40,068 nt of DNA from IMG/VR virus record IMGVR_UViG_2778261349_000008, positions 1 through 40,068 of that record; one strand, 5' to 3'. Shown here piece by piece: positions 2,304 to 40,068 of this stretch; position 1 is the stretch's first letter, and every line of letters begins with the position of its first letter. Below the pieces are notes generated by a model. That model did not search any database. It was not told where the DNA came from and saw only the letters and a list, made by a program, of their open reading frames with translations. The DNA comes from a virus (lineage: Duplodnaviria; Heunggongvirae; Uroviricota; Caudoviricetes). The translations under genes and the position numbers were made by a program.

Positions 2304-2951
2304 TTAGCCACGGTTAACCTCCTGCGGCGGTTCTGGCAGCGGCATCCAGTGGGTTACTTTTGATGCAGGTTCTTCTCCAATGTCAGTTACTGCCCACCAT
2401 TTGTTTCTCGACCAATCGTAATACCCTTCGAAGGTATCGCGTCCAGCAAATCCGCGAGACTCCCCAAAAAACCAAACATACTGTTTATCGTCCGGCATTC
2501 GCTCACTACAGCTTATCCAACCATCCGGAGTTACCGGAGAGTTGCCGCGTTCTTTAATGTGCAAGCGAGGCTCACCATCTTTTGGTTCAGGCCACTGGCG
2601 TTCCATGTTGATCTTCAATTTATTTTCCATAGCAGCGGTAATTTCAGCATCACTGATACCAGCACGGCGCTGTGCATCCCACAACAGGAACTGCATATCA
2701 GCCCACTCGCTGAGATCGTCAGGTTCAGCTGCGGCTTCCAGAGCCTCTTTTGAGAGGTGTTTCAGTGGACCAATGGGGCCAACGCAGCCAAATGTGGAGT
2801 CAGACCATTTGGCATGCTCGTGGCGAATCTGTTCGCGTTCCAGTGATGCCAGTGCAATCCGTGCCACTTCCATTTGTTCGCCACGGGTAAGCCCGTTATC
2901 AAGCGGATTTTTAATGAATAATTCGATACGTTCTTTGGTTATAGCGCTCAT
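2304..2951 (-). CDS. Phage early protein with DUF550-like N-terminal and DUF551-like C-terminal regions
   Basis: Start taken at the internal ATG (MSAITKERIEL...) preceded by AAAGGAGAG and overlapping the upstream stop (ATGA); the C-terminal W-rich segment (WISCSERMPDDKQYVWFF...WMPLPEPP) resembles DUF551 as I recall it. Confidence 0.65.
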   Translation of the reverse strand: MSAITKERIELFIKNPLDNGLTRGEQMEVARIALASLEREQIRHEHAKWSDSTFGCVGPIGPLKHLSKEALEAAAEPDDLSEWADMQFLLWDAQRRAGISDAEITAAMENKLKINMERQWPEPKDGEPRLHIKERGNSPVTPDGWISCSERMPDDKQYVWFFGESRGFAGRDTFEGYYDWSRNKWWAVTDIGEEPASKVTHWMPLPEPPQEVNRG

Positions 2952-2952
2952 A

Positions 2953-3903
2953 TCACTCTCCTTTGATGCGAATGCCAGCAAGCCAGTTTCTTATGCCGAT
3001 ATATTCAGCGTTTCTGAAACCGCTTTTTACATATATAAAAGGCAAGCGAAGATTGTGACCATTGGCTGCCAAGTAGTCTTTACAACCCTGCTCGGTGAAA
3101 CAGCAGGTCACGAATTCATCAATATCTTTCACAGCAACGCGACGCCATTTTTCTGGTGGCTCCCGAAAGTTTTCATGAAGTAGTTCGAGACGACGACTTT
3201 GGCGTTTATTGGCTTCATTGCCATCTTCGTCAACCCAGACAATCCGGTCATGGTCATAATCAGCATCAACAACGATTTCGCGCTTTTGATACACACAAAA
3301 CATGGGATCTGACGTTATTCGATTGTCCTGTGTTCGAATATTTTCACCGATGATGCCAAACGAATCTGGTGCAGATTTTGTCTGCATCTCTTCGATACGT
3401 TCAGCCATCGCAGCACACTCTTCAAAGTTGCTTAATGCTTTTCGCTCCCATTCGGCGCATTGTTTTTCCAGTTCTGCTATGTGCTTACTTCCATCCGCGA
3501 TTACTCCCTCGTAATACTCGCGTTGCTCGTTGAGTTTTGATTTTGCTTCCTCAAGCTCAACACGCAGTTTCCCTACCGTTAGCGCAATATCCTCGTTCTC
3601 CTGGTCGCGGCGTTTGATGTATTGCTGGTTTCTTTCCCGTTCATCCAACAGTGCCAGCACGGTAGCTGGACTGGCTGCGGCGATGAATTCAGCATTGGCC
3701 TGCTGTTCCATTTGGAAATCTTCATCGAAACCGCTTTCTGGATGCGCTCCTTCAATTCTGAAAATAGGAATATATCCAGCAGCCTCGCGATGAATTAGTG
3801 CATCATCACCATCAAATCGGCCATCTCCATATTCGAGCGACCACTCGCCACACGTTGCTTTTTCTGCCTTAGCACGCAGTGCCTGATAGTCAATCTTGCT
3901 CAC
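2953..3903 (-). CDS. Ead/Ea22-like early protein
   Basis: 316-aa ORF with N-terminus (M)[21 protein letters not shown] typical of lambdoid Ea22-like proteins; GTG start preceded by AGGAGG; coiled-coil-like acidic middle region. Confidence 0.7.
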
Positions 3904-4361: not shown

Positions 4362-4676
4362 TTAATTTATTCGTATGCCTGCTCTTTCTTCATCGAGTTT
4401 TTTTAGCTTGTATCGCATAGCTCTCACTGAATAAATTGAGCGGCAGGTTGCAATTGCTATTTCTTCTGCGGAGAACTTACCGAAAAGTGATACTTCGGCT
4501 CTTGTCCAGCGTCTTCCACGAAGTCGGCTAACAATGTCAGCGCCAATCCTTGTTGCTTTCGCCATTACTGCTTTTTCAGTCCTTTCCAGTTTTTCAGCGA
4601 TAACTTCAACTGGCATTGTCGACGCCACTTCGCGCAAGAAATCGACTTCCCATTTCTCCCATGGAGTCTTTTTCAT
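4362..4676 (-). CDS. Hypothetical early-left protein (104 aa), basic
   Basis: ORF in the operon orientation; no recognisable family. Confidence 0.5.
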   Translation of the reverse strand: MKKTPWEKWEVDFLREVASTMPVEVIAEKLERTEKAVMAKATRIGADIVSRLRGRRWTRAEVSLFGKFSAEEIAIATCRSIYSVRAMRYKLKKLDEERAGIRIN

Positions 4677-5170: not shown

Positions 5171-6065
5171 TGGCAACCTCCAGTTTCGCTTTGCATTCTA
5201 TGTAAATGGCTTGTACGTTCTGCTGCAATTTCATTCCAGATGTCAGGCGATATGCTTCTGCAAAATATCGCTTCAAATCATCCATGTTTTCAGCCTGAGC
5301 CATTTCATCACAAAGAAGTTGTGCTTTATCCGTTATTTCCTGCTGGCGTTTCCGTTCATCTTCGCGGATATCTTCCTCTGATTTGTGCGGCATAACTGGT
5401 TCAGTCCAAACACCTTCTTCTTCGTTTAGTACGTGAATAGCACTATCAAGACGTGATGCCTTAGGCCAATACTTGCTTGCACGCTTTACGACCGTCTTTC
5501 GCGCCATCTCATTCCAGTGATTTACCCATGGTCCTTTATCGCTGAATGCCGCCTTGCTTGTTTTCCTTACAGCCTCAATTTCAGCCAGACTCATCTCTTC
5601 CGTTAGATAATCACCTGCTGGCGTCTTAACTGTGCAGTAAACGCCAACGATATCACCACGATCACCGAAGGCGTTGTATTTATGGGTTGGTGCTTTATCA
5701 AGCCCGTTTGACTCATAGGTATCGTTAGCATGAACAAGTTTTGCCTGACCCCATGAGATAACACCAGACTCCATTGCAATATGGAGCAATCCCATATAAC
5801 TGATATCAAGGCACACCATGCCGTCGCGCGGAACCAGATAAGCCAGTTTGCTAGCCGGGTTTAAGGTGATGCCGATCGCCGCAACATTGATGATGGCGTT
5901 CTGTGCGCTGGTTGGATTTGCCAGTGCTGTTTTAGCCAGGTAATCATTTTTCTGGAAATACTGAATTGCAAACTGGCTTTCCTTAGCCCATGTCACCGTC
6001 TGTTCAGTCAATGCCCCGCAGAATAACTGCTCCTGCTGTTTAACGAATTCAACGATATTGCTCAT
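5154..6065 (-). CDS. recT: RecT-family single-strand annealing recombinase
   Basis: 303-aa ORF with the conserved GPWVNHWNEMARKTVVKRASKYWP block shared with Rac RecT. Confidence 0.85.
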   Translation of the reverse strand: MSNIVEFVKQQEQLFCGALTEQTVTWAKESQFAIQYFQKNDYLAKTALANPTSAQNAIINVAAIGITLNPASKLAYLVPRDGMVCLDISYMGLLHIAMESGVISWGQAKLVHANDTYESNGLDKAPTHKYNAFGDRGDIVGVYCTVKTPAGDYLTEEMSLAEIEAVRKTSKAAFSDKGPWVNHWNEMARKTVVKRASKYWPKASRLDSAIHVLNEEEGVWTEPVMPHKSEEDIREDERKRQQEITDKAQLLCDEMAQAENMDDLKRYFAEAYRLTSGMKLQQNVQAIYIECKAKLEVASEQTV

Positions 6066-6373
6066 GCTGCTTCTCCATAAATGTGTCTGCGTTTGAATAT
6101 TGCGAAGGCATATTCAGCCTTAACTCTTTCGGTTATTGCATCCCAGAACCATTCAGCGGCTTTTTCCTGATAGTTACAGTCATCATCTTCCAGCCAGTCG
6201 ATAGCGTCCTTAGTGTGTTCATCTGGTTTATATGAGCGAAGCATTTCGCTTATTGGGTCGCAACGTTTGCAGAGGCGATCAACTTCACTGTTGATTCGTT
6301 CGTAATCTTCATCAGTAAAACTTGCGATTATTTGCGATATTTCACGCTTATCATTCAGAGTCAGAATCATCAT
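6062..6373 (-). CDS. Hypothetical protein (103 aa) upstream of recT
   Basis: ORF overlapping the recT start; acidic; no recognisable family. Confidence 0.5.
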   Translation of the reverse strand: MMILTLNDKREISQIIASFTDEDYERINSEVDRLCKRCDPISEMLRSYKPDEHTKDAIDWLEDDDCNYQEKAAEWFWDAITERVKAEYAFAIFKRRHIYGEAA

Positions 6374-6458
6374 CTTTCTCCTGTTCTTTGTGCTGATTGA
6401 GCATTTTGTTCATCTGACGAATGAATTCTTCGTCTGACCAGTTATCCGTAAAACTCAT
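6351..6458 (-). CDS. Small acidic protein (35 aa) translationally coupled to cIII; possibly kil-like
   Basis: ATG overlaps the cIII stop (ATGA); translation MSFTDNWSDEEFIRQMNKMLNQHKEQEKDDDSDSE; the position matches kil in P22-like early-left operons, but there is no sequence evidence for that identity. Confidence 0.35.
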   Translation of the reverse strand: MSFTDNWSDEEFIRQMNKMLNQHKEQEKDDDSDSE

Positions 6459-6625
6459 GGACGGCCTTGTTGTTTCAAAATATCCCAAAGCTTTTCGAGC
6501 AAACTTTTCATTCTTGGTTGTTTAAAGTCTGCTCCGGTTAAAATATTTTTTCGTGAATGCTGTACCGATAAAATCGGGTTGAAAGGGCGAACCGATGCCG
6601 CCCCTGCAATAGCGAACTGTTGCAT
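6455..6625 (-). CDS. cIII: CIII-like FtsH-inhibitor protein
   Basis: Internal ATG with AGGAG RBS gives a 56-aa protein MQQFAIAGAASV...KSLLEKLWDILKQQGRP resembling lambda CIII (MQYAIAG...WKRLIDILNQPG); the longer ORF 6455-6730 is an N-terminal over-extension. Confidence 0.65.
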   Translation of the reverse strand: MQQFAIAGAASVRPFNPILSVQHSRKNILTGADFKQPRMKSLLEKLWDILKQQGRP

Positions 6626-6858
6626 AGGATGCTCCTTCTGTTTGATTGCATAACGAAAACGCCTCAAGTGAAGCGTTATTGGTATGCATATAAAAAGGCC
6701 CTCACACTGGAGGGCAAAGAAGATTTCCAATAATCAGAACAAGTCGGCTCCTGTTTAGTTACGAGCGACATTGCTCCGTGTATTCACTCGTTGGAATGAA
6801 TACACAGTGCTGTTTTTATTCTGTTGTTTATGCCAAAAATAAAGGTCGACTATGCGGC

Positions 6859-7329
6859 CTAGTAGAATACCCAATTTTCTGTTTCTTGGTTGTGTCCAAA
6901 GTTATATTCAATATCTGGTGTTGATGTATCAATATTCTTCATCCCATCAACAAGAGTTGATACAATAGCCAAATCTTGTTTGATTCTCATTAAATGGTAT
7001 TTCTTCCGGCGCAATAAACTTTCAATGGCAAGTTTCTTCGTTGGGAATGCAAAAGATCTTTCTGCATTTTTTGCTACTTTCTTAATTGCATATCTATTTC
7101 TCTTTTGTTTCCATTCCTGTAACCACTGATTTGGTGCTGGTTTAAAATTAACAATCCAATGCGCAGGAACCAACCATGCATAATGCTCTGTCTGATGAAA
7201 AGCTATATATTGAAGTGCGAATATTTTGATTCCATCTTCTTCAACTGTCGCCTGGAATCTCCAGAAAACAGGCATTCCATCATGTTCAGTTTCTGATTCA
7301 GGAAAAGGTACGCTCCATGATTTTGTCAT
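6859..7329 (-). CDS. Hypothetical protein (156 aa), AT-rich gene between N and cIII
   Basis: ATG with GAGGTGAG RBS 8 nt after the N stop; codon composition visibly more AT-rich than flanking phage genes; no recognisable family. Confidence 0.65.
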   Translation of the reverse strand: MTKSWSVPFPESETEHDGMPVFWRFQATVEEDGIKIFALQYIAFHQTEHYAWLVPAHWIVNFKPAPNQWLQEWKQKRNRYAIKKVAKNAERSFAFPTKKLAIESLLRRKKYHLMRIKQDLAIVSTLVDGMKNIDTSTPDIEYNFGHNQETENWVFY

Positions 7330-7337
7330 ATCTCACC

Positions 7338-7637
7338 TCAAATAAGTGGTTTGCTGCCTAATTTCATTTTCTGGCGACCAACACATGTCACACCCATTTC
7401 ACTGCGTGGCTTGCGGTAGTAAATACGGTTCTGTTTACGCTCGACTTCTTCTGCCTTCTTGCAGCGAAGGCTTCCGAGTGATGCTGCTTTATCTGCTCTG
7501 ACGCAACCAGAGAGCTTTAGCGCAATTTTTCGCGCCAGTCGCTGCTCTTGCATTGCCTGTTCACGTTGAGCCTGTCTGCGTGCTCTGCGGCGATTTCTGG
7601 CGTTATCGTCAGCCAGATATGTAATGACTACTGTCAT
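7338..7637 (-). CDS. N-like transcription antitermination protein (P22 gene 24 analogue)
   Basis: 99-aa ORF immediately downstream of nutL on the PL transcript; N-terminal arginine-rich motif NARNRRRARRQAQREQ; GGAGG RBS. Confidence 0.7.
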   Translation of the reverse strand: MTVVITYLADDNARNRRRARRQAQREQAMQEQRLARKIALKLSGCVRADKAASLGSLRCKKAEEVERKQNRIYYRKPRSEMGVTCVGRQKMKLGSKPLI

Positions 7638-7745
7638 GTTGACCTCCGATGATTGACTTTGGCGGTGACGCGCCGGGTGCTTATCTTCCGGTTGCCGTCG
7701 TGCAGCTGCACTTCACGTCACCCCAAAGCCAACTACTCTTTGGTT

Positions 7746-7786
7746 CCCGCATTTCGGCGGGACAATCCCATCAATGTTAAAGAGCC
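7746..7786 (-). promoter_or_regulatory. nutL: boxA (GCTCTTTAACA) plus boxB hairpin (CCCGCCGAAATGCGGG) on the leftward transcript
   Basis: Reverse complement of this stretch reads boxA-spacer-boxB; the boxB hairpin is identical to the one downstream of cro. Confidence 0.7.
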
Positions 7787-7825
7787 TGCCAATCTGTTCC
7801 GTTTGGCTTCCAGCGTCCTGCTGAT

Positions 7826-7905
7826 GGCTTAAATTTAAGATCTCTTCAATTAATGGTCAAGAGTATTTTTGAAGAAAACTTAAATTTTCTTTCGTAACTT
7901 AAGTT
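7826..7905. promoter_or_regulatory. OL/PL region with P22-type C2 operator-like sites
   Basis: Repeated ATTTAAGA / CTTAAAT half-site motifs (aaatttaagatctcttcaatt; aacttaaatttt; aacttaagttt) between the repressor gene and nutL. Confidence 0.5.
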
Positions 7906-7925
7906 TAGATTTGATTTTTAAAGGA

Positions 7926-7950
7926 AATAAAAAAAGGGGCGAATGCCCCC
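7926..7950 (-). terminator. Rho-independent terminator downstream of the repressor gene
   Basis: GGGGC-gaat-GCCCC stem followed by a T8 run on the minus strand, immediately after the c2 stop. Confidence 0.7.
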
Positions 7951-8601
7951 TTATGGAAGGTTTGCTAGTTTTGCATCGACAACTACGCCGATGATTTTGC
8001 AGTTTCCGTTGATCTCGATCATCGGATATTGTGGGTTAAGTGGTTTTAGAAACTTCCTGCCTGCATCAATAACTAACTTCTTGAAAGTTGCCTCGTTTTC
8101 TCCTTCGAGCTTTGCAACTACAAGTTTCCCGTTACGCGGCTCTACTTCAGGATCGACGAGTATTATCATTCCTTCAGGGATACTGAGACCGGCTGGAGCC
8201 GTCATTGAGTCTCCCTTCACGTCCAACCAAAACGAATCTTCTGAACAGTCTACGGTTGTATCGTACCAGTTATCTATTGCACGCTTATGATATGGTTCTA
8301 CAGCTTCCATCCAGCATCCTGCGCTCACCCAGCTAATCAGAGGGAATGACCCTCTTGGATCATGCCTACTGTGATAGGCAATGTTTGAAAGACTTTCCTC
8401 TCCTTTCATCAGATAGTCAGGGGAACACTTCAACGCATTAGCCAGGGCGAGAAGGTTCTCTCCATTTGGCTCTGTCTCAGAGCGTTCCCACTGAGATATG
8501 GCAACATTAGACACGCCGACCATCTTTCCAAGTGCGGCCTGCCTGATCTTGAGTTCTTTTCTCCGAGCGCGAATGCGCTCTCCCATCAATTGAGTTTTCA
8601 T
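7951..8601 (-). CDS. c2: Phage repressor, LexA/S24-peptidase type (P22 C2-like)
   Basis: 216-aa ORF matching P22 C2 as I recall it along its whole length (MKTQLMGERIRARRKELKIRQAALGKMVGVSNVAISQWERSE...IIGVVVDAKLANLP); ATG with almost no leader, typical of PRM transcripts. Confidence 0.9.
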   Translation of the reverse strand: MKTQLMGERIRARRKELKIRQAALGKMVGVSNVAISQWERSETEPNGENLLALANALKCSPDYLMKGEESLSNIAYHSRHDPRGSFPLISWVSAGCWMEAVEPYHKRAIDNWYDTTVDCSEDSFWLDVKGDSMTAPAGLSIPEGMIILVDPEVEPRNGKLVVAKLEGENEATFKKLVIDAGRKFLKPLNPQYPMIEINGNCKIIGVVVDAKLANLP

Positions 8602-9288: not shown

Positions 9289-9450
9289 ATGACAAAACGT
9301 CGTAAGAAATACCAGGAAAAAGAAGAGATTCGACACCCTGATTCACCTGAGGGATTAGTGGTAGCCGCAGCAAATAACAGGGCGTTCGCAGAGCGCCTTG
9401 TTGGTGTTTACAGACTAGCCAAAGCAGGAGTGAAACATGGGCGTCGTTAA
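9289..9450 (+). CDS. Hypothetical small basic protein (53 aa) between c1 and the replication gene
   Basis: ATG with AGGAG RBS; stop overlaps the start of the O-like gene; translation MTKRRKKYQEKEEIRHPDSPEGLVVAAANNRAFAERLVGVYRLAKAGVKHGRR. Confidence 0.4.
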   Translation: MTKRRKKYQEKEEIRHPDSPEGLVVAAANNRAFAERLVGVYRLAKAGVKHGRR

Positions 9451-10327
9451 GTTAGCTGATTACAGGCATAACCCTGTACAACATCAGGAGGCATCCAGTA
9501 TGGGGTATGTCTCTATACACCGCCAGTTTATGGACAGCAGGCTCTATAAGGACTCTCAGGCAGTACATCTTTGGCTTCACTTAATCCTCAAGGCTAATCA
9601 CGAATCTACTGTCGTCAATACGGATATCGGGCCGATAACTGTTGATCGCGGTCAGATGATAACTGGACGCCCGTCGCTGGTCAGAGAAACATTCATCCCC
9701 GACAACAAAGTTCGGAGCTTATTGCGGACTTTTGAGTCGAAAGGGATGCTTAATATTTGCTCGATGGGGAAGAAATTTAGCCTGCTTACAATCGTTAAAT
9801 ATGACGATTTTCAGGCAAAAAATTGTCCAACGGTTGTCCAACGGTTGTCCAACGCAAACACCAGTAATGGCGCGGCTCTCAGCGGAGATTGTCCAACGGT
9901 TGTCCAACGGTTGTCCATAAACAATAATATAAATAATATCTCTAATACTGACGTATTAGAGAGTGCCACAGCAGACAAAAAGTCTGACAAGAAAAAACCT
10001 TCCGTTAGCTGTCAGGATGTTGTCGATGCTTACCACGAAATCCTTCCTGAAGCGCCAAGAATCCGCGCACTGAATGACAAGCGTAAAAACCAGATCCGAA
10101 CGTTCTGGCGCAAAGCCGGAGTGATAACCCGCCAGCTTGACGGGCATGGTTTCACGATGCAGGACTGGAGAAATTATTTGAGCTACGTAGGCGAAAATTG
10201 CCGATGGATGTTCGAAGAGCGCCCAAACCATCAGCGCGGAACCGTCTGGCACAAAAAGGGATTTGATTTCCTGCTTAACGATAATACCTACCTGAAAGTT
10301 CGTGAGGGTGAACACGATGACCGATAA
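9437..10327 (+). CDS. Replication initiation protein, lambda O-like (P22 gene 18 analogue), containing the origin iterons
   Basis: 296-aa ORF after c1 in the PR operon; AGGAG RBS; internal iteron arrays and an AT-rich stretch as in lambda ori inside O. Confidence 0.75.
   Translation: MGVVKLADYRHNPVQHQEASSMGYVSIHRQFMDSRLYKDSQAVHLWLHLILKANHESTVVNTDIGPITVDRGQMITGRPSLVRETFIPDNKVRSLLRTFESKGMLNICSMGKKFSLLTIVKYDDFQAKNCPTVVQRLSNANTSNGAALSGDCPTVVQRLSINNNINNISNTDVLESATADKKSDKKKPSVSCQDVVDAYHEILPEAPRIRALNDKRKNQIRTFWRKAGVITRQLDGHGFTMQDWRNYLSYVGENCRWMFEERPNHQRGTVWHKKGFDFLLNDNTYLKVREGEHDDR
9823..9921. repeat. Putative replication origin: two clusters of three 11-bp direct repeats (TTGTCCAACGG) followed by an AT-rich segment
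   Basis: ttgtccaacgg x3 at about 9823-9855 and x3 at about 9889-9921 (last copies degenerate), then aacaataatataaataatatctctaatac. Confidence 0.75.
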
Positions 10328-15736: not shown

Positions 15737-15811
15737 GGGTCAGTCGTATAAAGGTCATTACGGAAGGCTGTTAACCTTCTTATCGTGGTTCGAGTCCACG
15801 CTGTCCCGCCA
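15737..15811 (+). tRNA. Phage-encoded tRNA candidate, anticodon GUU (Asn)
   Basis: Hand-folded cloverleaf: acceptor stem with one mismatch, GG in the D-loop, perfect 5-bp anticodon stem with loop cuGUUaa, T-arm cgtgg-TTCGAGT-ccacg, 3' CCA encoded. Confidence 0.5.
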
Positions 15812-15816
15812 AATAT

Positions 15817-15892
15817 GCTGGTTTATCTCCAATGGTAGAGCAGTCGCCTTGTAAGCGAATGGGTAGCGGTTCAAGTCCGTTAACCAGCACCA
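15817..15892 (+). tRNA. Phage-encoded tRNA candidate, anticodon UGU (Thr)
   Basis: Hand-folded cloverleaf: perfect 7-bp acceptor stem gctggtt/aaccagc, anticodon loop ctTGTaa, T-loop TTCAAGT, 3' CCA encoded. Confidence 0.55.
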
Positions 15893-34375: not shown

Positions 34376-35305
34376 ATGAAAAGTATAGCAACAGCAGTAT
34401 CTACTATCAACGTGCCATTCCACGGCGCAGAGCTTTATGTCGTCAATCACAACGGTGAGCCGTACACCCCAATGAAACCTATCGTTGAAGGTATGGGTAT
34501 GGATTGGGCTTCACAGTTTACGAAAATAAAGCAACGGTTTAAAACCTCCATTGTGAAAATCACAATGCAGCTTCCTGGTGATGAACAGTGCCGTGAGATT
34601 ATTTGTTTGGCACTTCGCAAACTTGCTGGCTGGCTGCAAACCATCAGCCCTAACAAAGTCCGCCCTGAAATCCGCGACAAGGTAATCCAGTATCAGGAAG
34701 AGTGTGACGATGTGCTCTATGAGTACTGGACTAAAGGCCATGTGGTTAATCCACGCAAAGCTAAAAAGGCGTTGCCGGGCAAAATCACCACTGAACAGCA
34801 GGAAGCCATTAAACAACTCGTCATGAGTCGCGGTCAGTCTCTGCCAAAAGAAAAACAGGCTAAGGCGATGATCACCATGTGGTCGTCACTAAAATCCCAT
34901 TTTGGATGTTCGTACAAAGAAATCAGTGAGGAGCAGTTTACCGAAGCACTATCACTTGCAGCTCGAGTTCCACTTGAAGGCGAGTTTATCGGCAAACAAG
35001 AGAAGAAAACCAACGAGCTTTCTGCAAAAGAAGCAAACAGCCTTGTATGGTTATGGGATTATGCCAACCGTTCACAGGCATTATTCCGCGAACTGTATCC
35101 GGCATTAAAACAAATTCAATCGAACTATTCCGGGAGATGCTACGACTACGGTCATGAGTTCTCGTATGTTATCGGAATGGCGAGAGACGTTTTAATCAAT
35201 CACACACGAGATGTTGATATCAATGAGCCAGACGGACCAACGAATCTTTCCGCATGGATGAGACTTAAGAATAAAGAATTACCTCCTTCAGTACATAACT
35301 ACTGA
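34376..35305 (+). CDS. ant: Antirepressor (Ant-like)
   Basis: 309-aa ORF downstream of arc, in the position of P22 ant. Confidence 0.7.
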
Positions 35306-35405: not shown

Positions 35406-37472
35406 ATGACAGACATTACAGCCAATGTGATCGTATCGATGCCTTCGCAACTCTTCACTATGGCGCGTTCTTTTAAAGCTGTAGCCAATGGAAAAATTTA
35501 TATCGGTAAAATTGACACTGACCCTGTAAATCCTGAAAACCAGATTCAGGTTTATGTGGAGAACGAAGACGGCTCTCACGTTCCCGTTTCGCAACCAATC
35601 ATCATTAACGCTGCTGGATATCCGGTATATAACGGACAGATTGCCAAATTTGTAACTGTGCAAGGCCATTCTATGGCTGTTTATGATGCATACGGTGCTC
35701 AGCAGTTTTATTTTCCTAATGTGCTGAAGTATGACCCTGATCAGCTAAGACAAGAATTAGAGAGTGGTATCGGAGCTTCAATAATAGGTTACGGATCATC
35801 GACAGTAAAAGATGCTCTTGATTCGGTTGTAAATAAACGTGTTTTGTACTTTTCCAGATTTGGCACACTGCAATCGCTGCAATCTTACATCACATCTAAC
35901 AACCTTAAAAACGTTGAAATTATTTTTGATCAGGTTGTGAATTTTGGCCCAGGAAGCGGAGGGTTGGGTACAATTGTTTCATTAAGCGACATGGACTATC
36001 TCGCCGTTAAGGGTTTGGTAATCAGAGACACTCTGCTTTATTCCGGCGCATTTGACCTGACGCGTGTGTTCGACCTGACGAATATCACCAATCTGGTGTT
36101 TGAAGTTGATGCCTCTTCCACACTTGAGTATGTCGGTGATGATAAGCGCGGACTGACCACACTGCGCCTGAATGGATGCGATAACTTCACATTTATCGGT
36201 AAGACTAGCAAGTGCTATCAGGGTTACGAATGCACTAATGTAAAAAATCTCTATGCTCGTAGTGTGAATAATGACACCCGCTACCCTCATCTTATGAGCA
36301 ATATAGGTTTGGTAGATATCAATACAAAAAACAATGGATGCCGCAGGGATTTCTTTCTTCAAAACAACTGCGCTGGCGGGCAAATCACAGTTGATGCCGT
36401 TGACACCCAGCAGGGTACGCCCATAAAGATGTATTTCTTTAACGGAAATATGGACAACCAGATATCTAATCTTGTTATAAAATATAAATATAGGAGCACA
36501 GGGAGATACACATTGCCATATCGTGTGGCTCCAATTTGGTTAGATTGGGGGTGGGATAGCTCGACAACAGAGACACTTATATCTGGTGTAATGCGTAATA
36601 TCACCATAGAGTATGATGTTGTAGGAGGCAATTGGGGTAGTGTCATTGGTACAACCAAACTAATAGATGAAACTATTGGGGATGGTGTAGCAAGAGGATA
36701 TGTTTATTCAAACATATTAATCAAAGGAAGAATTGAGTTAGGAGGAGGAGACTCCAATAATAAAGCGTGGGTATATAATTTTAACACTACCGATAACTGG
36801 AAAGATGGAGATGATATTAATGGATTTTACCTAAAAGACATTGTAATAAGAAAGTTAAATGGCGGTGAGGTGTATCTCAATACAAATCAATTAGCTGGGG
36901 CAGTGAAATCTAGTGGGCAAATAGTTTTGGATAATGTTTCTGCACCAGAGCTGATACTTTCAGCTCAAAGTTATGGCGATAAGGTCATGTTTAATAACTG
37001 CAATCTTTATGATTTCACAACTAAAAATGCTGTTAAAAATGCATATCAATCGCTTAAAACTACATGTACGATAAGAAAAGCATCAGGCGATGCCTCAAGC
37101 TTCCAAATTGGGTCAATGAGTGTATATAGAACAATCTGTTTCCTTTCGGTAGATATTAAAGCGACATCACCTTCATCAGGAAGTGTAAGTACATGGGGTG
37201 GTAATATAACTGGACAGTTGGTGCAAGGTACTACAGCAGGAAATGTAACATTAACTGGCAATACAAATACTTTGTACACAACAGGAACGGCATTAAATCC
37301 GTCTATTAGGTGCGAGACAGACGGCAGGATTATAATTACATTTGCAGGGTGGGAGTCGCTTGAAGCATTCATAACGTGCGATATTGCAATGGTTTACAAT
37401 GAATATTCAGGTGGATCTAATAACACAGTTCTCGGCCTGGTAAACAAGAAATTTGCTGTTGGAACTGTTTAA
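35406..37472 (+). CDS. Tailspike protein: P22/HK620-type N-terminal head-binding domain fused to a divergent beta-helix receptor-binding domain
   Basis: N-terminal ~110 aa ([46 protein letters not shown]...NVLKYDPDQ) match the conserved head-binding domain; the remaining ~575 aa do not resemble P22 or HK620 tailspikes as I recall them. Confidence 0.85.
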
Positions 37473-37666: not shown

Positions 37667-38824
37667 TCACTCCACCTTTTCATCAATCCAGTCCGCCCAC
37701 CACTGCATCATTTCTCTGCGCTTATCGAGATACTGAGCATGGTTGTAAATCCCGCGCACAGATCCGCCGTTGGCATGTGCCAGTTGCACTTCAATAGCGT
37801 CAGCAGGCCATTCGTGCTCGTTCATAATCGTGCTGAATTCATGCCTGAATCCGTGACCGCTTTCCAGACCCTCATAGCCGATTTGTTTGATCACAAGTAG
37901 CACCGCGTTCTCGCAGATTGGCTTCTTCTTATCGTTGCGTCCGGCAAAAACAAACTCTGATACTGGTTTAGTGATGGAGCTTAGCGTAGTGAGAAGTTCA
38001 ACCACCTGGTCCGACATCGGGACCACATGAATCTTGCGTCCCTTCATCACACTGGCGTCGATGGTGATAATCTTGTTTTCAAAATCGACGTTCTTCCATT
38101 GCATGGAACGAAGCTCTTTCGTTCTTAGGGCTGTGTAGCGTAAAACCTTGGTGGCAATGAGCGATACGATACTTCCTGAAAATGTTGCCAGTGCTTTGTT
38201 GAATTCCGGGATCTGGTCTGCAGGAAGAAACGGGAAGTTCTTCTTGCGGTATCCCTTCATGGCGTCAGCAAGGTCAGGTGCCGGGTTATATTTAGCCCTA
38301 CCAGTGACAATAGCGTAACGGAAAACCTCGCCGCATCTTCTGCGTGCTTTGTTGGCTCGCTCCATTGCGCCGCGATCTTCAAATCTGCGGATTACTTCCA
38401 GCAGTTGCATCGGCTCAATATCCTGAATTTCAAGGCCGCCGATGATAGGTAAAATGTCGTCATCAAACATTTTTGCAAGTTCATTCGCATACCCTACTGA
38501 CCAGACTTGCTTCTTGTGCTCGTACCATTCCTTGTAAATCGCACTAAAGGAATTGTTGTTAGACGAAGCCTTTTTCGCTTTTACCGGATCGATGCCAACC
38601 GAGATGTCTTTCCTCGCGGTCCATGCTTTATCTCTTGCCTCCTGCAAAGTCATTAGCGGATATTTTCCTACGGTCAGGATTTTCTCCTTACCGTCAATCT
38701 TGTAGCGAAGCTGCCATACCTTTTTACCTGACACAGGGACATAAAGGTACAGGCCATTACCATCGAGTAGGCGGTATGGTTTTTCTTTCGGCTTTGCTGC
38801 TTCAATCTGCTTAACGGTGAGCAT
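37667..38824 (-). CDS. intS: Tyrosine integrase, P4-type (KplE1/CPS-53 IntS-like)
   Basis: Matches my recollection of K-12 IntS from MLTVKQIEAAKPKEKPYRLLDGNGLYLYVPVSGKK...; C-terminal catalytic region with R...HxxR...Y; directly next to argW in the same orientation; the listed ORF start at 38860 is an upstream GTG. Confidence 0.85.
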   Translation of the reverse strand: MLTVKQIEAAKPKEKPYRLLDGNGLYLYVPVSGKKVWQLRYKIDGKEKILTVGKYPLMTLQEARDKAWTARKDISVGIDPVKAKKASSNNNSFSAIYKEWYEHKKQVWSVGYANELAKMFDDDILPIIGGLEIQDIEPMQLLEVIRRFEDRGAMERANKARRRCGEVFRYAIVTGRAKYNPAPDLADAMKGYRKKNFPFLPADQIPEFNKALATFSGSIVSLIATKVLRYTALRTKELRSMQWKNVDFENKIITIDASVMKGRKIHVVPMSDQVVELLTTLSSITKPVSEFVFAGRNDKKKPICENAVLLVIKQIGYEGLESGHGFRHEFSTIMNEHEWPADAIEVQLAHANGGSVRGIYNHAQYLDKRREMMQWWADWIDEKVE

Positions 38825-38985
38825 GGGTAAAAATCCGGTGGGTAAAATTATTTTATCCACTTTTTACCCGTCATGGAGTGCGGATGTCAACGATCTGACG
38901 CGAACCATTACGAACTGTGAATCTACGGAAGGCTTGATATTCAGGGGATTTTGCGGACTGGTACGGATGGGAGAGAACTGATAAA

Positions 38986-39000
38986 TGGTGTCCCCTGCAG
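38986..39000. repeat. attR core: 15-bp direct repeat (tggtgtcccctgcag), the 3' end of argW
   Basis: Identical to 1690-1704. Confidence 0.8.
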
Positions 39001-39060
39001 GAATCGAACCTGCAATTAGCCCTTAGGAGGGGCTCGTTATATCCATTTAACTAAGAGGAC
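38986..39060 (-). tRNA. argW: tRNA-Arg (anticodon CCU)
   Basis: Reverse complement reads GTCCTCTTAGTTAAATGGATATAACGAGCCCCTCCTAAGGGCTAATTGCAGGTTCGATTCCTGCAGGGGACACCA: 75 nt, cloverleaf with anticodon loop CTCCTAA and 3' CCA. Confidence 0.9.
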
Positions 39061-39135: not shown

Positions 39136-40068
39136 TTATGCTGGGTTTTTATCATTTTTCTTAATGTTTTCCGCACGTTCTGCTTTTTGGCGTGCTTCTG
39201 CTTTACGCTTGTTGCTCATGTCGTTACGAATCTGTGCATGACTCATTAACGCGAAGATAAAGGTGCCGCCGCAGATGTTCCCCGCTAAAGTAGGTAGTGC
39301 GAAGGGCCAGATGAAATCGCTCCAGTGCAGCGTGCCGTTAAACACCAGATAGAGGATTTCAACAGAACCGACAACGATGTGGGTGGTGTCACCCAGTGCA
39401 ATAAGCCAGGTCATCAATATAATCACCACAATCTTTGCCGCACCCGCAGCAGGAAACATCCAAACCATAGTGGCGATCAGCCAGCCGGAAATGATCGCGT
39501 TGGCAAACATCTCGCTGGGGGTGTTCTTCATCACATCCATGCCGATTTTGACAAATGCATCGCGAGTTTCTTCATTGAAGATAGGCATATATTCAAATGC
39601 CCATGCAGCAATACCTGTCCCGAGAATATTACCCAGCAGCACGACGCCCCATAATCGCATAAGTAAGCCGACGTTGCTCATTGTCGGTTTTTGCATGACG
39701 GGTAGTACCGCAGTCACGGTGTTTTCGGTAAATAATTGCTGGCGGGCCATAATGACGATAATAAAACCAAAGGTATAACCGAGATTCTCCAGTAAGAAGC
39801 TGCCTGGCACTCCTTCCAGTTCGACATGAAATATCCCTTTTGCCAGTAGCGAAGCGCCCATCGACAGACCCGCCGCAATGGCTGACCACAGTAGCGCCAT
39901 TGCGTCGCGTTCCAGCTCTTTTTCACCATCCTGGCGGATATGCTCATGAATTGCCATCGCCCGGGAGGGGAGTCGATCTTCATCTATTTCTATTTTTTTG
40001 CCGCGCTCTTTTTCTTCGCTCTCAACTTCAATTTCGTCGCTGTGTTGATCAATTTTGTCGTTGTCCAT
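39136..40068 (-). CDS. yfdC: Inner-membrane protein of the formate/nitrite transporter (FNT) family (host gene)
   Basis: 310-aa ORF with multiple transmembrane segments; in K-12 the gene next to argW is yfdC; the start codon sits at the window edge. Confidence 0.7.
   Translation of the reverse strand: MDNDKIDQHSDEIEVESEEKERGKKIEIDEDRLPSRAMAIHEHIRQDGEKELERDAMALLWSAIAAGLSMGASLLAKGIFHVELEGVPGSFLLENLGYTFGFIIVIMARQQLFTENTVTAVLPVMQKPTMSNVGLLMRLWGVVLLGNILGTGIAAWAFEYMPIFNEETRDAFVKIGMDVMKNTPSEMFANAIISGWLIATMVWMFPAAGAAKIVVIILMTWLIALGDTTHIVVGSVEILYLVFNGTLHWSDFIWPFALPTLAGNICGGTFIFALMSHAQIRNDMSNKRKAEARQKAERAENIKKNDKNPA

What the first reader, a model, noticed from the sequence alone, without database searches (positions are those of the whole stretch)
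6859..7329. AT-rich unknown gene immediately downstream of N in the early-left operon
A 156-aa ORF with a strong RBS starts 8 nt after the N stop and is markedly more AT-rich than its neighbours, suggesting recent acquisition. The N-to-cIII interval is where lambda and P22 carry ral, sieB and gene 17, that is anti-restriction and exclusion functions. The protein has no family I can recognise, so it is a candidate single-gene defence or anti-defence factor expressed early after infection or induction.
Basis: partly seen in the sequence, partly recalled or inferred. Interest (0 to 1): 0.7.

Follow-up and report, generated by a model that had tools for sequence, protein, structure and literature searches.

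The report
HK97 gp45-family early phage gene
The AT-rich gene just after N is real and conserved, but it is the long-catalogued "hypothetical" HK97 gp45 / 933W ORF (PHROG 1636), found in about 11% of complete E. coli genomes, and its function is still unknown, so it is a reasonable screening candidate rather than a discovery.

Summary
A 156-aa ORF lies at 6859-7329 on the minus strand. Its ATG is 8 nt after the N stop and is preceded by GAGGTGA. Its GC is 35.9% against 46.6% for the window.

The gene is not new. It is 98-99% identical to HK97 Gp45 and to the ORF after N in 933W, H-19B, BP-4795 and many Stx phages. It matches PHROG 1636 (unknown function) over its full length and occurs in 598 of 5426 complete E. 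coli genomes.

It is not related to Ral, SieB, Ea10 or P22 gp17 (hhalign probability below 3%), and it sits beside Ral, a gp17-like gene or Ea10 in the same slot in other phages. No Pfam, NCBIfam or PADLOC family matches.

The family is phage-restricted, stands alone as a single gene, and is under purifying selection. Every member has a basic centre, and most have an acidic C-terminal tail.

My best guess (confidence about 0.4) is an early lytic-cycle binding protein that targets nucleic acid or another acidic ligand. An anti-defence role is possible but untested. Defence of the lysogen is unlikely. Low GC is a trait of the whole family, not proof of recent acquisition.

The parts
6859..7329 (-). 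156-aa ORF, the HK97 gp45 / PHROG 1636 family protein. It is 18.6 kDa, has pI 9.05 and has no transmembrane segment.
   Evidence: The ORF is listed. It matches PHROG 1636 at E 1.2e-111 over 1-156/156. It is 98-99% identical to HK97 Gp45 and to the 933W and H-19B ORFs. It is under purifying selection. The AF2 model has pLDDT 95.6.
7333..7339 (-). Shine-Dalgarno sequence GAGGTGA. It overlaps the N stop codon (7340-7338) and ends 3 nt before the ATG; its GAGG core ends 6 nt before.
   Evidence: Read from the sequence. The sequence is identical in HK97, 933W and vB_EcoP-611R6.
7338..7637 (-). N-like antiterminator gene (99 aa). Its last 54 nt (7338-7391) lie inside the module shared with HK97 and 933W.
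   Evidence: PHROG 271 at E 4.8e-37. Pfam N_peptide at E 8e-4, below its cut-off. The mosaic junction at about 7391 is seen.
7832..7860 (-). pL-like promoter (TTGACC, 17-nt spacer, TAAATT). This is a consensus match only.
   Evidence: Found. It lies between the cI-like repressor gene (7951-8601) and N.
7745..7785 (-). Putative nutL. On the minus strand, a boxA-like GCTCTTTAACA (7785-7775) is followed 12 nt later by a boxB-like hairpin UCCCGC-CGAAAU-GCGGGA (7762-7745).
   Evidence: Read directly from the sequence. Calling it nutL rests on my knowledge of lambdoid nut sites and was not tested.
6778..6805 (-). A 12-bp stem-loop with no U-tract in the 3' untranslated region of the gene. Its role is unknown.
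   Evidence: Found by RNA folding. The 219-nt region downstream of the gene folds at z = -5.2 against shuffles.
6698..6715 (-). The first intrinsic-terminator-like hairpin downstream of pL (GCCCTCCAGTGTGAGGGC followed by CTTTTTATAT). It would correspond to tL1.
   Evidence: Found. The same element in HK97 is annotated as a putative terminator.
6658..6677 (-). A second terminator-like hairpin, just upstream of cIII.
   Evidence: Found and conserved in HK97.
6455..6625 (-). cIII-like gene (56 aa). It marks the downstream boundary of the slot.
   Evidence: PHROG 550 'CIII' at E 1.1e-22.

Best explanation
The ORF encodes a soluble, non-enzymatic accessory protein of the HK97 gp45 / PHROG 1636 family. 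It is transcribed from pL together with N. In this module it lies upstream of the first terminators, so it should be made in the first minutes of infection or induction, without needing antitermination.

The protein has a long three-stranded beta-sheet (residues 19-55), short helices, a small beta unit (83-95), a 33-residue helix (98-130) and an acidic C-terminal tail.

I propose that it serves the phage's lytic programme by binding a negatively charged partner through its conserved basic face. Nucleic acid is the most likely partner. A nucleotide-like ligand or an acidic host protein are alternatives. The basic face comprises K84, K87, R91/92, R108 and K109, alongside conserved aromatic residues and E46-T47. 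The acidic tail may fold back on that face as a regulator or as a partner-binding element.

Shown here: gene reality, family membership, operon position, predicted fold, the charge layout, phage restriction and the lack of any fixed partner gene. Inferred: timing of expression, ligand class and the benefit to the phage.
For: Transcription unit:
- There is an 8-nt gap to N, a strong RBS, and no promoter-like site between pL and the ORF.
- The first terminator-like hairpins come only after the ORF, both here and in HK97.

Lytic-cycle role:
- A 62%-identical homologue heads a small cassette in phage Bas81, which has no annotated integrase or repressor.
- Structural relatives occur in phages I know as virulent (Erwinia phiEa2809, Achromobacter phiAxp-3, Delftia RG-2014).

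Binding protein rather than enzyme:
- Across 67 diverse members, only G33, T47, K87 and A101 are nearly invariant. There is no catalytic-looking constellation.
- No enzyme family matches in Pfam or NCBIfam for any member.

Conserved electrostatics:
- Residues 75-120 carry net +5 to +14 in 67 of 67 members (median +10).
- The C-terminal tail is acidic in 88% of members and ends in an aromatic plus an acidic residue.

Single-gene module:
- Flanking genes show no conserved neighbour in an all-against-all comparison.

Phage-specific:
- Only 11 of 72,556 plasmids carry it, and none is mobilizable.

Strong constraint:
- 40 of 156 residues are invariant across enterobacterial genera.
- pN is 0.21 against saturated pS.
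Against: - No direct evidence for any ligand exists.
- Basic patches also occur in proteins that bind acidic proteins or membranes.
- Immediate-early timing is not a family trait. [quoted passage not shown] In phi367 and JX2, other genes separate it from N.
- Promoter and terminator calls are simple consensus matches.
- I could not inspect the 3D coordinates, so the 'basic face' is inferred from sequence and secondary structure only.
Confidence: 0.4

Rival explanations
1. It is an anti-defence protein. An early-made inhibitor binds and neutralises a host immune component, such as a restriction or other nucleic-acid-targeting system. This is the anti-defence half of the first reader's idea.
For: - It sits in the N-cIII accessory hotspot, which holds ral in lambda, P22 and phi367.
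- In this module it is co-transcribed with N, ahead of the first terminators.
- In distant members, Lar-like or orphan DNA methylase genes lie in the same operon in 5 of 7 loci. Bas81 also carries Lar and Stp-like genes elsewhere in its genome.
- It is a single-gene cassette with mosaic spread.
Against: - Orphan methylases and Lar are common in early-left operons in any case, and none is adjacent.
- The family is absent from conjugative plasmids, where generic anti-restriction genes such as ardA and klcA are common.
- It is basic (pI 9.05), so it is not a DNA mimic.
- It has no structural similarity to any solved anti-defence protein.
- Its wide distribution and strong conservation across genera fit a conserved target better than a fast-evolving immune target.
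- It coexists with Ral, so it does not replace Ral.
Confidence: 0.27
2. It is an accessory factor for phage DNA transactions (recombination, replication or excision). It would bind DNA ends or intermediates alongside the Rec module.
For: - In every temperate context it lies in the operon that carries RecT, YqaJ, SSB, RdgC, Gam and xis-int.
- In Bas81 its cassette contains ParB-like and RusA genes.
- It combines a basic core with an acidic C-terminal tail ending in an aromatic residue. From my own knowledge, this is reminiscent of SSB and T7 gp2.5 tails.
Against: - It has no fixed neighbour and no consistent partner among the Rec genes.
- A recent survey of lambdoid early-left operons does not list such a protein as a Rec-module component (PMC12315714).
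- It shows no OB fold and no similarity to any known recombination protein.
Confidence: 0.15
3. It is a prophage-encoded defence or superinfection-exclusion gene. It would be expressed in the lysogen and protect it from other phages. This is the defence half of the first reader's idea.
For: - The slot also holds sieB and gene 17-type exclusion genes.
- It is an AT-rich cassette with its own terminators, which resembles a moron.
Against: - No sigma-70-like promoter lies upstream of the ORF, so the gene depends on pL, which is repressed in lysogens.
- No PADLOC model matches any of the 67 members consistently.
- The protein has no membrane segment, unlike SieB.
- A close homologue sits in a phage with no annotated integrase or repressor.
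- It coexists with a gp17-like exclusion gene in one prophage.
Confidence: 0.08
4. It is a spurious or decaying ORF with no function.
For: There is no annotation anywhere and no experimental record.
Against: - The probability of a chance ORF of this length is about 4e-6.
- Length and 40 invariant residues are conserved across genera.
- pN is far below pS.
- The profile search lists 87 representative sequences at E up to 0.001 (two long ones checked are repetitive false positives), and the AF2 model is very confident.
Confidence: 0.01

Closest known systems
HK97 Gp45 (AAF31125) and the 933W ORF NP_049479; PHROG 1636
   Same: - 98-99% amino-acid identity over all 156 residues.
- The same position downstream of N and upstream of the tL-type terminators and cIII.
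- The same RBS and 3' untranslated region.
   Different: The upstream N allele differs. Here a 99-aa N reads 54 nt into the shared module and stops 8 nt before the ATG. In HK97 and 933W, N stops 58 nt upstream. None of these proteins has an assigned function.
Lambda/P22 Ral (restriction alleviation)
   Same: It occupies the same N-cIII interval of the early-left operon and is an early-expressed, small, basic accessory protein.
   Different: There is no sequence relationship (hhalign probability 0.1%). Ral has 66 aa against 156 aa here. Both genes occur together in phage phi367.
P22 gene 17 product (allows growth on Fels-2 lysogens) and its 'superinfection exclusion' homologues
   Same: It occupies the same slot, is a single gene, and is followed by a terminator before c3/cIII.
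   Different: The hhalign probability is 2.4%. A gp17-like gene sits directly downstream of this ORF in E. coli EC01307, so the two are separate cassettes.
SieB (lambda, P22)
   Same: It lies in the same interval.
   Different: According to the lambda and P22 annotation, SieB is on the opposite strand; the P22 record also annotates its own promoter. From my own knowledge it is membrane-associated. This protein is on the pL strand, has no predicted membrane segment, and gives an hhalign probability of 0.7%.
SSB and T7 gp2.5-type proteins (functional analogy only)
   Same: Both combine a basic nucleic-acid-binding-like core with an acidic C-terminal tail that carries a conserved terminal aromatic residue. 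What I say about the SSB and gp2.5 tails comes from my own knowledge.
   Different: No OB fold was detected, and there is no sequence or structural match to an SSB. The analogy is a lead and has not been tested.

Membership tests
PHROG 1636 / HK97 gp45 family | Full-length profile match | tested here: met
   E 1.2e-111, residues 1-156 aligned to profile positions 1-156 of 156.
PHROG 1636 / HK97 gp45 family | High identity to the founding members (HK97 Gp45 and the 933W and H-19B ORFs) | tested here: met
   98.1-99.4% identity over 100% of the query by tblastn.
PHROG 1636 / HK97 gp45 family | Location in the early-left (pL) operon between the immunity region and int | tested here: met
   Seen in the window, HK97 and 933W, distant members and Brenneria and Pectobacterium.
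Ral restriction-alleviation family | Sequence or profile similarity to lambda Ral | tested here: not met
   hhalign probability 0.14%.
P22 gp17 family | Sequence or profile similarity to P22 gp17 | tested here: not met
   hhalign probability 2.4% over 24 columns. A gp17-like gene also co-occurs with this ORF in the same slot.
SieB superinfection exclusion | Sequence similarity to SieB, plus membrane association and its own promoter | tested here: not met
   hhalign probability 0.7%. The maximum 19-residue hydropathy is 0.56, so no transmembrane segment is predicted. No promoter-like site precedes the ORF.
Ea10/Ssb of lambda | Sequence similarity | tested here: not met
   hhalign probability 0.18%. 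Both genes are present in 933W.
DNA-mimic anti-restriction proteins (Ocr, ArdA) | A strongly acidic protein that mimics DNA | tested here: not met
   pI is 9.05, and the centre carries 17 K/R against 5 D/E. No structural match was found in the PDB.
Known anti-phage defence systems (PADLOC-DB 2.0) | A match to any defence-protein model | tested here: not met
   Only chance-level hits, with E at best about 0.001, and no model shared by more than 4 of 67 members.
AP2 / integrase-arm-type DNA-binding fold | A three-stranded sheet packed on a helix, with significant structural similarity to a known member | tested here: inconclusive
Anti-defence proteins in general | Inhibition of a host immune system | not testable with these tools
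   This needs plating assays against cloned defence systems.

The most novel reading that the evidence does not exclude
The HK97 gp45 family may be a founding member of a new fold class of phage early effectors. On this reading it is a small basic protein that disables a conserved host nucleic-acid-targeting immune or surveillance component, or sequesters an anionic signalling molecule. That would explain its spread across lambdoid, T1-like, marine Vibrio and other phages. The evidence does not exclude this reading, and it also does not specifically support it.
Probability: 0.25. Interest if true: 0.7.

Novelty: already known. Interest (0 to 1): 0.33.

Why it matters
The gene is carried by the model phage HK97, by the clinically important Stx phages 933W and H-19B, and by prophages in roughly one in nine complete E. 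coli genomes. It sits next to the master early regulator N, yet nobody has assigned it a function. Its confidently predicted fold has no solved relative.

Finding its target would fill a gap in the early programme of lambdoid and Stx phages, and could add a new type of host-takeover or counter-defence protein.

As it stands, it is one of many conserved phage unknowns. The value of this analysis is in narrowing the options. It is not Ral, gp17 or SieB. It is probably not a lysogen defence gene. It is not an enzyme by any visible signature. It is phage-specific, and its electrostatic layout is conserved across the family.

Tried and rejected
Family libraries:
- Pfam, NCBIfam and PADLOC scans of the protein and of all 67 diverse family members gave nothing consistent.
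- PHROGs gave only unknown-function families: 1636, 13631, 25384 and 28215.

Solved structures:
- PDB sequence-profile searches with both alignments gave nothing below E 0.39.
- Foldseek against the PDB with the first, poor model (pLDDT 66.5) gave only noise.
- The afdb50 library was unavailable.
- I suspected an AP2-like 'RFAFxT..A' DNA-binding motif and a GIY-YIG resemblance (1zg2, E 0.41). Neither was supported.

Other tests:
- hhalign against Ral, SieB, Ea10, gp17, and P22 orf87 and orf78 was negative in every case.
- The search for a conserved neighbour gene found none.
- The apparent domain fusions are not real. P0062 and P0080 are repetitive false positives, and P0051 has only a Cys-rich N-terminal extension.
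- Rfam found no RNA family in 6300-8100.
- The search for related loci with the diverse alignment failed because it has no sufficiently conserved stretch.

Literature:
- Searches used HK97 gp45, protein accessions, slot phrases and anti-defence terms. None found a functional report.
- A 2025 survey of lambdoid early-left operons does not assign this gene.

Full report
**1. The observation**

The window has a 156-aa ORF at 6859-7329 on the minus strand.
- Directly upstream on that strand is a 99-aa N-like antiterminator at 7338-7637. It matches PHROG 271 at E 4.8e-37. Its Pfam N_peptide match is below the cut-off.
- Downstream is a cIII-like gene at 6455-6625 (PHROG 550).
- Eight nucleotides separate the N stop from the ATG. 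The sequence TTTGAGGTGAGAT-ATG provides a strong Shine-Dalgarno that overlaps the N stop.
- The gene has 35.9% GC, against 46.6% for the window and 49.3% for N. Only 1% of windows of the same length are as AT-rich.
- GC3 is 0.287, the lowest of 16 genes compared.
- A chance ORF of this length at this composition has a probability of about 4e-6.

**2. Setting**

The window is a P22-like (Lederbergvirus; Sf6/HK620/N7-like) prophage.
- It is integrated at a tRNA-Arg(CCT) gene (38986-39060). A 20-nt repeat of the tRNA end lies at 1690-1709.
- It is flanked by a LacY-family permease and a formate/nitrite-transporter-family gene.
- Reading leftward from a cI-like repressor (7951-8601) and a pL-like promoter (7860-7832), the operon runs in this order: N, the 156-aa ORF, two terminator-like hairpins, cIII, a kil-like ORF, an unknown ORF, RecT, a Mu-Gam-like gene, further small genes, an Ead/Ea22-like gene and a dATP/dGTP pyrophosphohydrolase-DUF551 gene.

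**3. Identity**

The protein matches PHROG 1636 ('unknown function') end to end at E 1.2e-111.
- tblastn finds it in 83 phage records. It is 98-99% identical in HK97 (annotated Gp45), 933W, H-19B, BP-4795, Stx2 phage 86 (orf57), Min27 and many Stx1 and Stx2 phages. It is always labelled 'hypothetical protein'.
- In HK97 the order is N, gp45, a putative terminator, then cIII. In 933W it is N, the ORF, ea10/ssb, then cIII.
- The DNA occurs in 598 of 5426 complete E. coli genomes, in 834 copies.
- The exact protein is in the public collections as WP_097493482.1, 'hypothetical protein'.
- Pfam, NCBIfam and PADLOC do not recognise it.
- I found no paper that assigns a function.

This is therefore a long-known ORF of unknown function, not a new gene.

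**4. The module and the 'recent acquisition' idea**

The homology with HK97 and 933W is sharply bounded.
- It starts about 54-62 nt upstream of the ATG, at window position ~7391, which is inside the 3' end of this phage's N gene.
- It runs through the gene and its terminators to 6632 in HK97, or to 6688 in 933W.
- Upstream of the junction the N alleles are unrelated. HK97 and 933W N stop right at the junction, 58 nt before the ATG. This window's N reads on and stops 8 nt before it.
- Near-identical modules next to different N alleles in three lambdoid lineages show recent recombinational spread of the cassette.

Low GC, however, is not specific to this phage. In 9 of 9 loci from unrelated phages, the family member is 3-11 GC points below its surroundings. 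AT-richness is therefore a family trait and cannot date the acquisition.

**5. The slot**

The annotated lambda and P22 records confirm that ral, sieB, ea10, gene 17 and small ORFs lie between N (gene 24 in P22) and cIII (c3 in P22).
- Profile comparison of the family with lambda Ral, SieB and Ea10, and with P22 gp17, orf87 and orf78, gives probabilities of 0.1-2.4%.
- The ORF shares the slot with Ral in phage phi367, with a gp17-like 'superinfection exclusion' gene in E. coli EC01307, with Ea10 in 933W, and with two other small ORFs in strain JX2.

It is an additional, independent cassette in a variable hotspot. It is not a variant of a known occupant.

**6. The wider family**

An exhaustive profile search lists 87 representative sequences at E up to 0.001, most of them proteins of 130-160 aa that match residues 19-140.
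- A 67-sequence alignment shows few conserved positions: an aromatic-basic pair (W23-R24), G33, E/Q46-T47, aromatics at 41 and 52, K87 (basic in 100% of members), R91/92, A94, A101 (100%), K109, a heptad of hydrophobic residues at 113/116/120/127, and a C-terminal aromatic residue.
- No member hits a Pfam, NCBIfam or PADLOC family in a consistent way.
- Seven distant members sit in phage or prophage accessory gene regions, six of them in early operons that carry RecT, YqaJ, SSB, RdgC or integrase genes. An orphan DNA methylase or a Lar-like gene lies in the same operon in 5 of 7, but never adjacent. No neighbouring gene is conserved.
- In Brenneria and Pectobacterium prophages, the 63%-identical homologue is the last gene before xis-int. 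Adjacency to N is therefore a feature of the E. coli module only.
- A 62%-identical homologue heads a small cassette (with ParB-like and RusA genes) in Escherichia phage Bas81, which has no annotated integrase or repressor.
- Only 11 of 72,556 plasmid records carry the gene. All are non-mobilizable, and most are phage-sized.

**7. Structure**

- With the shallow alignment, AlphaFold gave a poor model (pLDDT 66.5).
- With the diverse alignment it gave pLDDT 95.6 and pTM 0.82.
- The confident model has strands at 19-30, 33-46 and 50-55, helices at 56-61 and 66-74, a strand at 83-86, a 33-residue helix at 98-130, and an ordered, extended C-terminal tail.
- Foldseek against BFVD gives 12 hits at E below 1e-3 (TM 0.44-0.63). 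All are 'uncharacterized' proteins from diverse phages, including Erwinia phiEa2809, Achromobacter phiAxp-3, Delftia RG-2014, and Rhizobium, Sinorhizobium, Tenacibaculum and Cellulophaga phages.

The fold is thus a phage-specific one with no characterised member.

**8. Properties**

- The protein is 18.6 kDa, has pI 9.05 and has no membrane segment.
- The charge layout holds across the family. Residues 75-120 have net charge +5 to +14 in 67 of 67 members (median +10).
- The C-terminal tail is acidic in 88% of members and usually ends in FD, FE or WE.
- Against the Bas81 homologue, pN is 0.21 while synonymous sites are saturated at pS 0.82.

**9. Likely mode of action**

What is shown:
- The gene is a real, constrained, phage-restricted single-gene module.
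- In this cassette it lies between N and the first intrinsic-terminator-like hairpins, and no promoter of its own was detected.

What I infer:
- It is made with N in the N-independent immediate-early transcript.
- It acts in the lytic programme.
- It works by binding rather than by catalysis.
- Its partner is probably nucleic acid or another anionic ligand, bound by its conserved basic surface, with the acidic tail modulating that surface.

I give this reading a confidence of about 0.4. The rivals are:
- a protein-targeting anti-defence inhibitor (0.27);
- a DNA-transaction accessory factor (0.15);
- a lysogen-expressed exclusion gene (0.08);
- a spurious ORF (0.01).

None of these can be settled without experiments.

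**10. Verdict**

The gene is nevertheless the already-catalogued HK97 gp45 / PHROG 1636 ORF. The recent-acquisition argument from GC is unsound. The defence/anti-defence assignment is only one of several open possibilities.

I rate interest as moderate-low (0.33). It is a good, well-defined candidate for a functional screen because of its prevalence in Stx phages and its unassigned fold, but a specialist would not find it surprising.

Noticed in passing
window 38986-39060 and 1690-1709: A tRNA-Arg(CCT) gene lies next to the integrase (37667-38860, minus strand). A 20-nt, 90%-identical direct repeat of its end lies at 1690-1709. These are probably the att sites of a prophage of about 37.3 kb. 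The flanking genes are a LacY-family permease (1-1248) and a formate/nitrite-transporter-family gene (39136-40068)..
   Followed up: partly
window 7338-7391: A mosaic junction lies inside the 3' end of N. The last 54 nt of this N ORF are identical to what is non-coding N-gp45 spacer in HK97 and 933W, whose N genes stop at the junction. Different N alleles therefore end at different points in one shared module.
   Followed up: yes
window 6640-6858, especially 6778-6805: The 3' untranslated region of the ORF is unusually structured (z = -5.2 against shuffles). It contains a 12-bp stem-loop with no U-tract, ahead of two terminator-like hairpins. It could be a processing or stability element, or a protein-binding palindrome. 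It is conserved with the module in HK97.
   Followed up: partly
window 9811-9917: Five copies of an 11-nt-spaced repeat (TTGTCCAACGG) lie inside the O-like replication gene (9437-10327). They are probably origin iterons.
   Followed up: no
window 36571-37180: This is the most AT-rich stretch of the window (GC about 0.34-0.35). It lies in the C-terminal part of the tailspike-like gene (35406-37472), whose N-terminus is a P22 head-binding domain. That pattern is consistent with a swapped receptor-binding module.
   Followed up: no
window 15737-15892: Two phage-borne tRNA genes, Asn(GTT) and Thr(TGT), lie 5 nt apart, upstream of the late region.
   Followed up: no
window 6062-6373 and 4362-4676: These are further early-left ORFs without a function. 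A 103-aa protein matches only PHROG 3486 (unknown function) and has no Pfam hit. A 104-aa protein matches unknown-function or 'D5-like regulator' PHROGs.
   Followed up: no
window 2304-2981 and 2953-3903: The distal early-left genes are a dATP/dGTP pyrophosphohydrolase domain fused to DUF551, and an Ead/Ea22-like protein.
   Followed up: no
window 34376-35305: A P22-type antirepressor (P22_AR_N plus P22_AR_C domains) lies between the DNA-transfer-type genes and the tailspike. This indicates an immI-like region.
   Followed up: no
L004/L018 (Escherichia phage Bas81) 19698-20174: The 62%-identical homologue heads a leftward cassette (gp45-like, ParB-like, two unknown genes, RusA) inserted among structural genes. 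The phage has no annotated integrase or repressor.
   Followed up: partly
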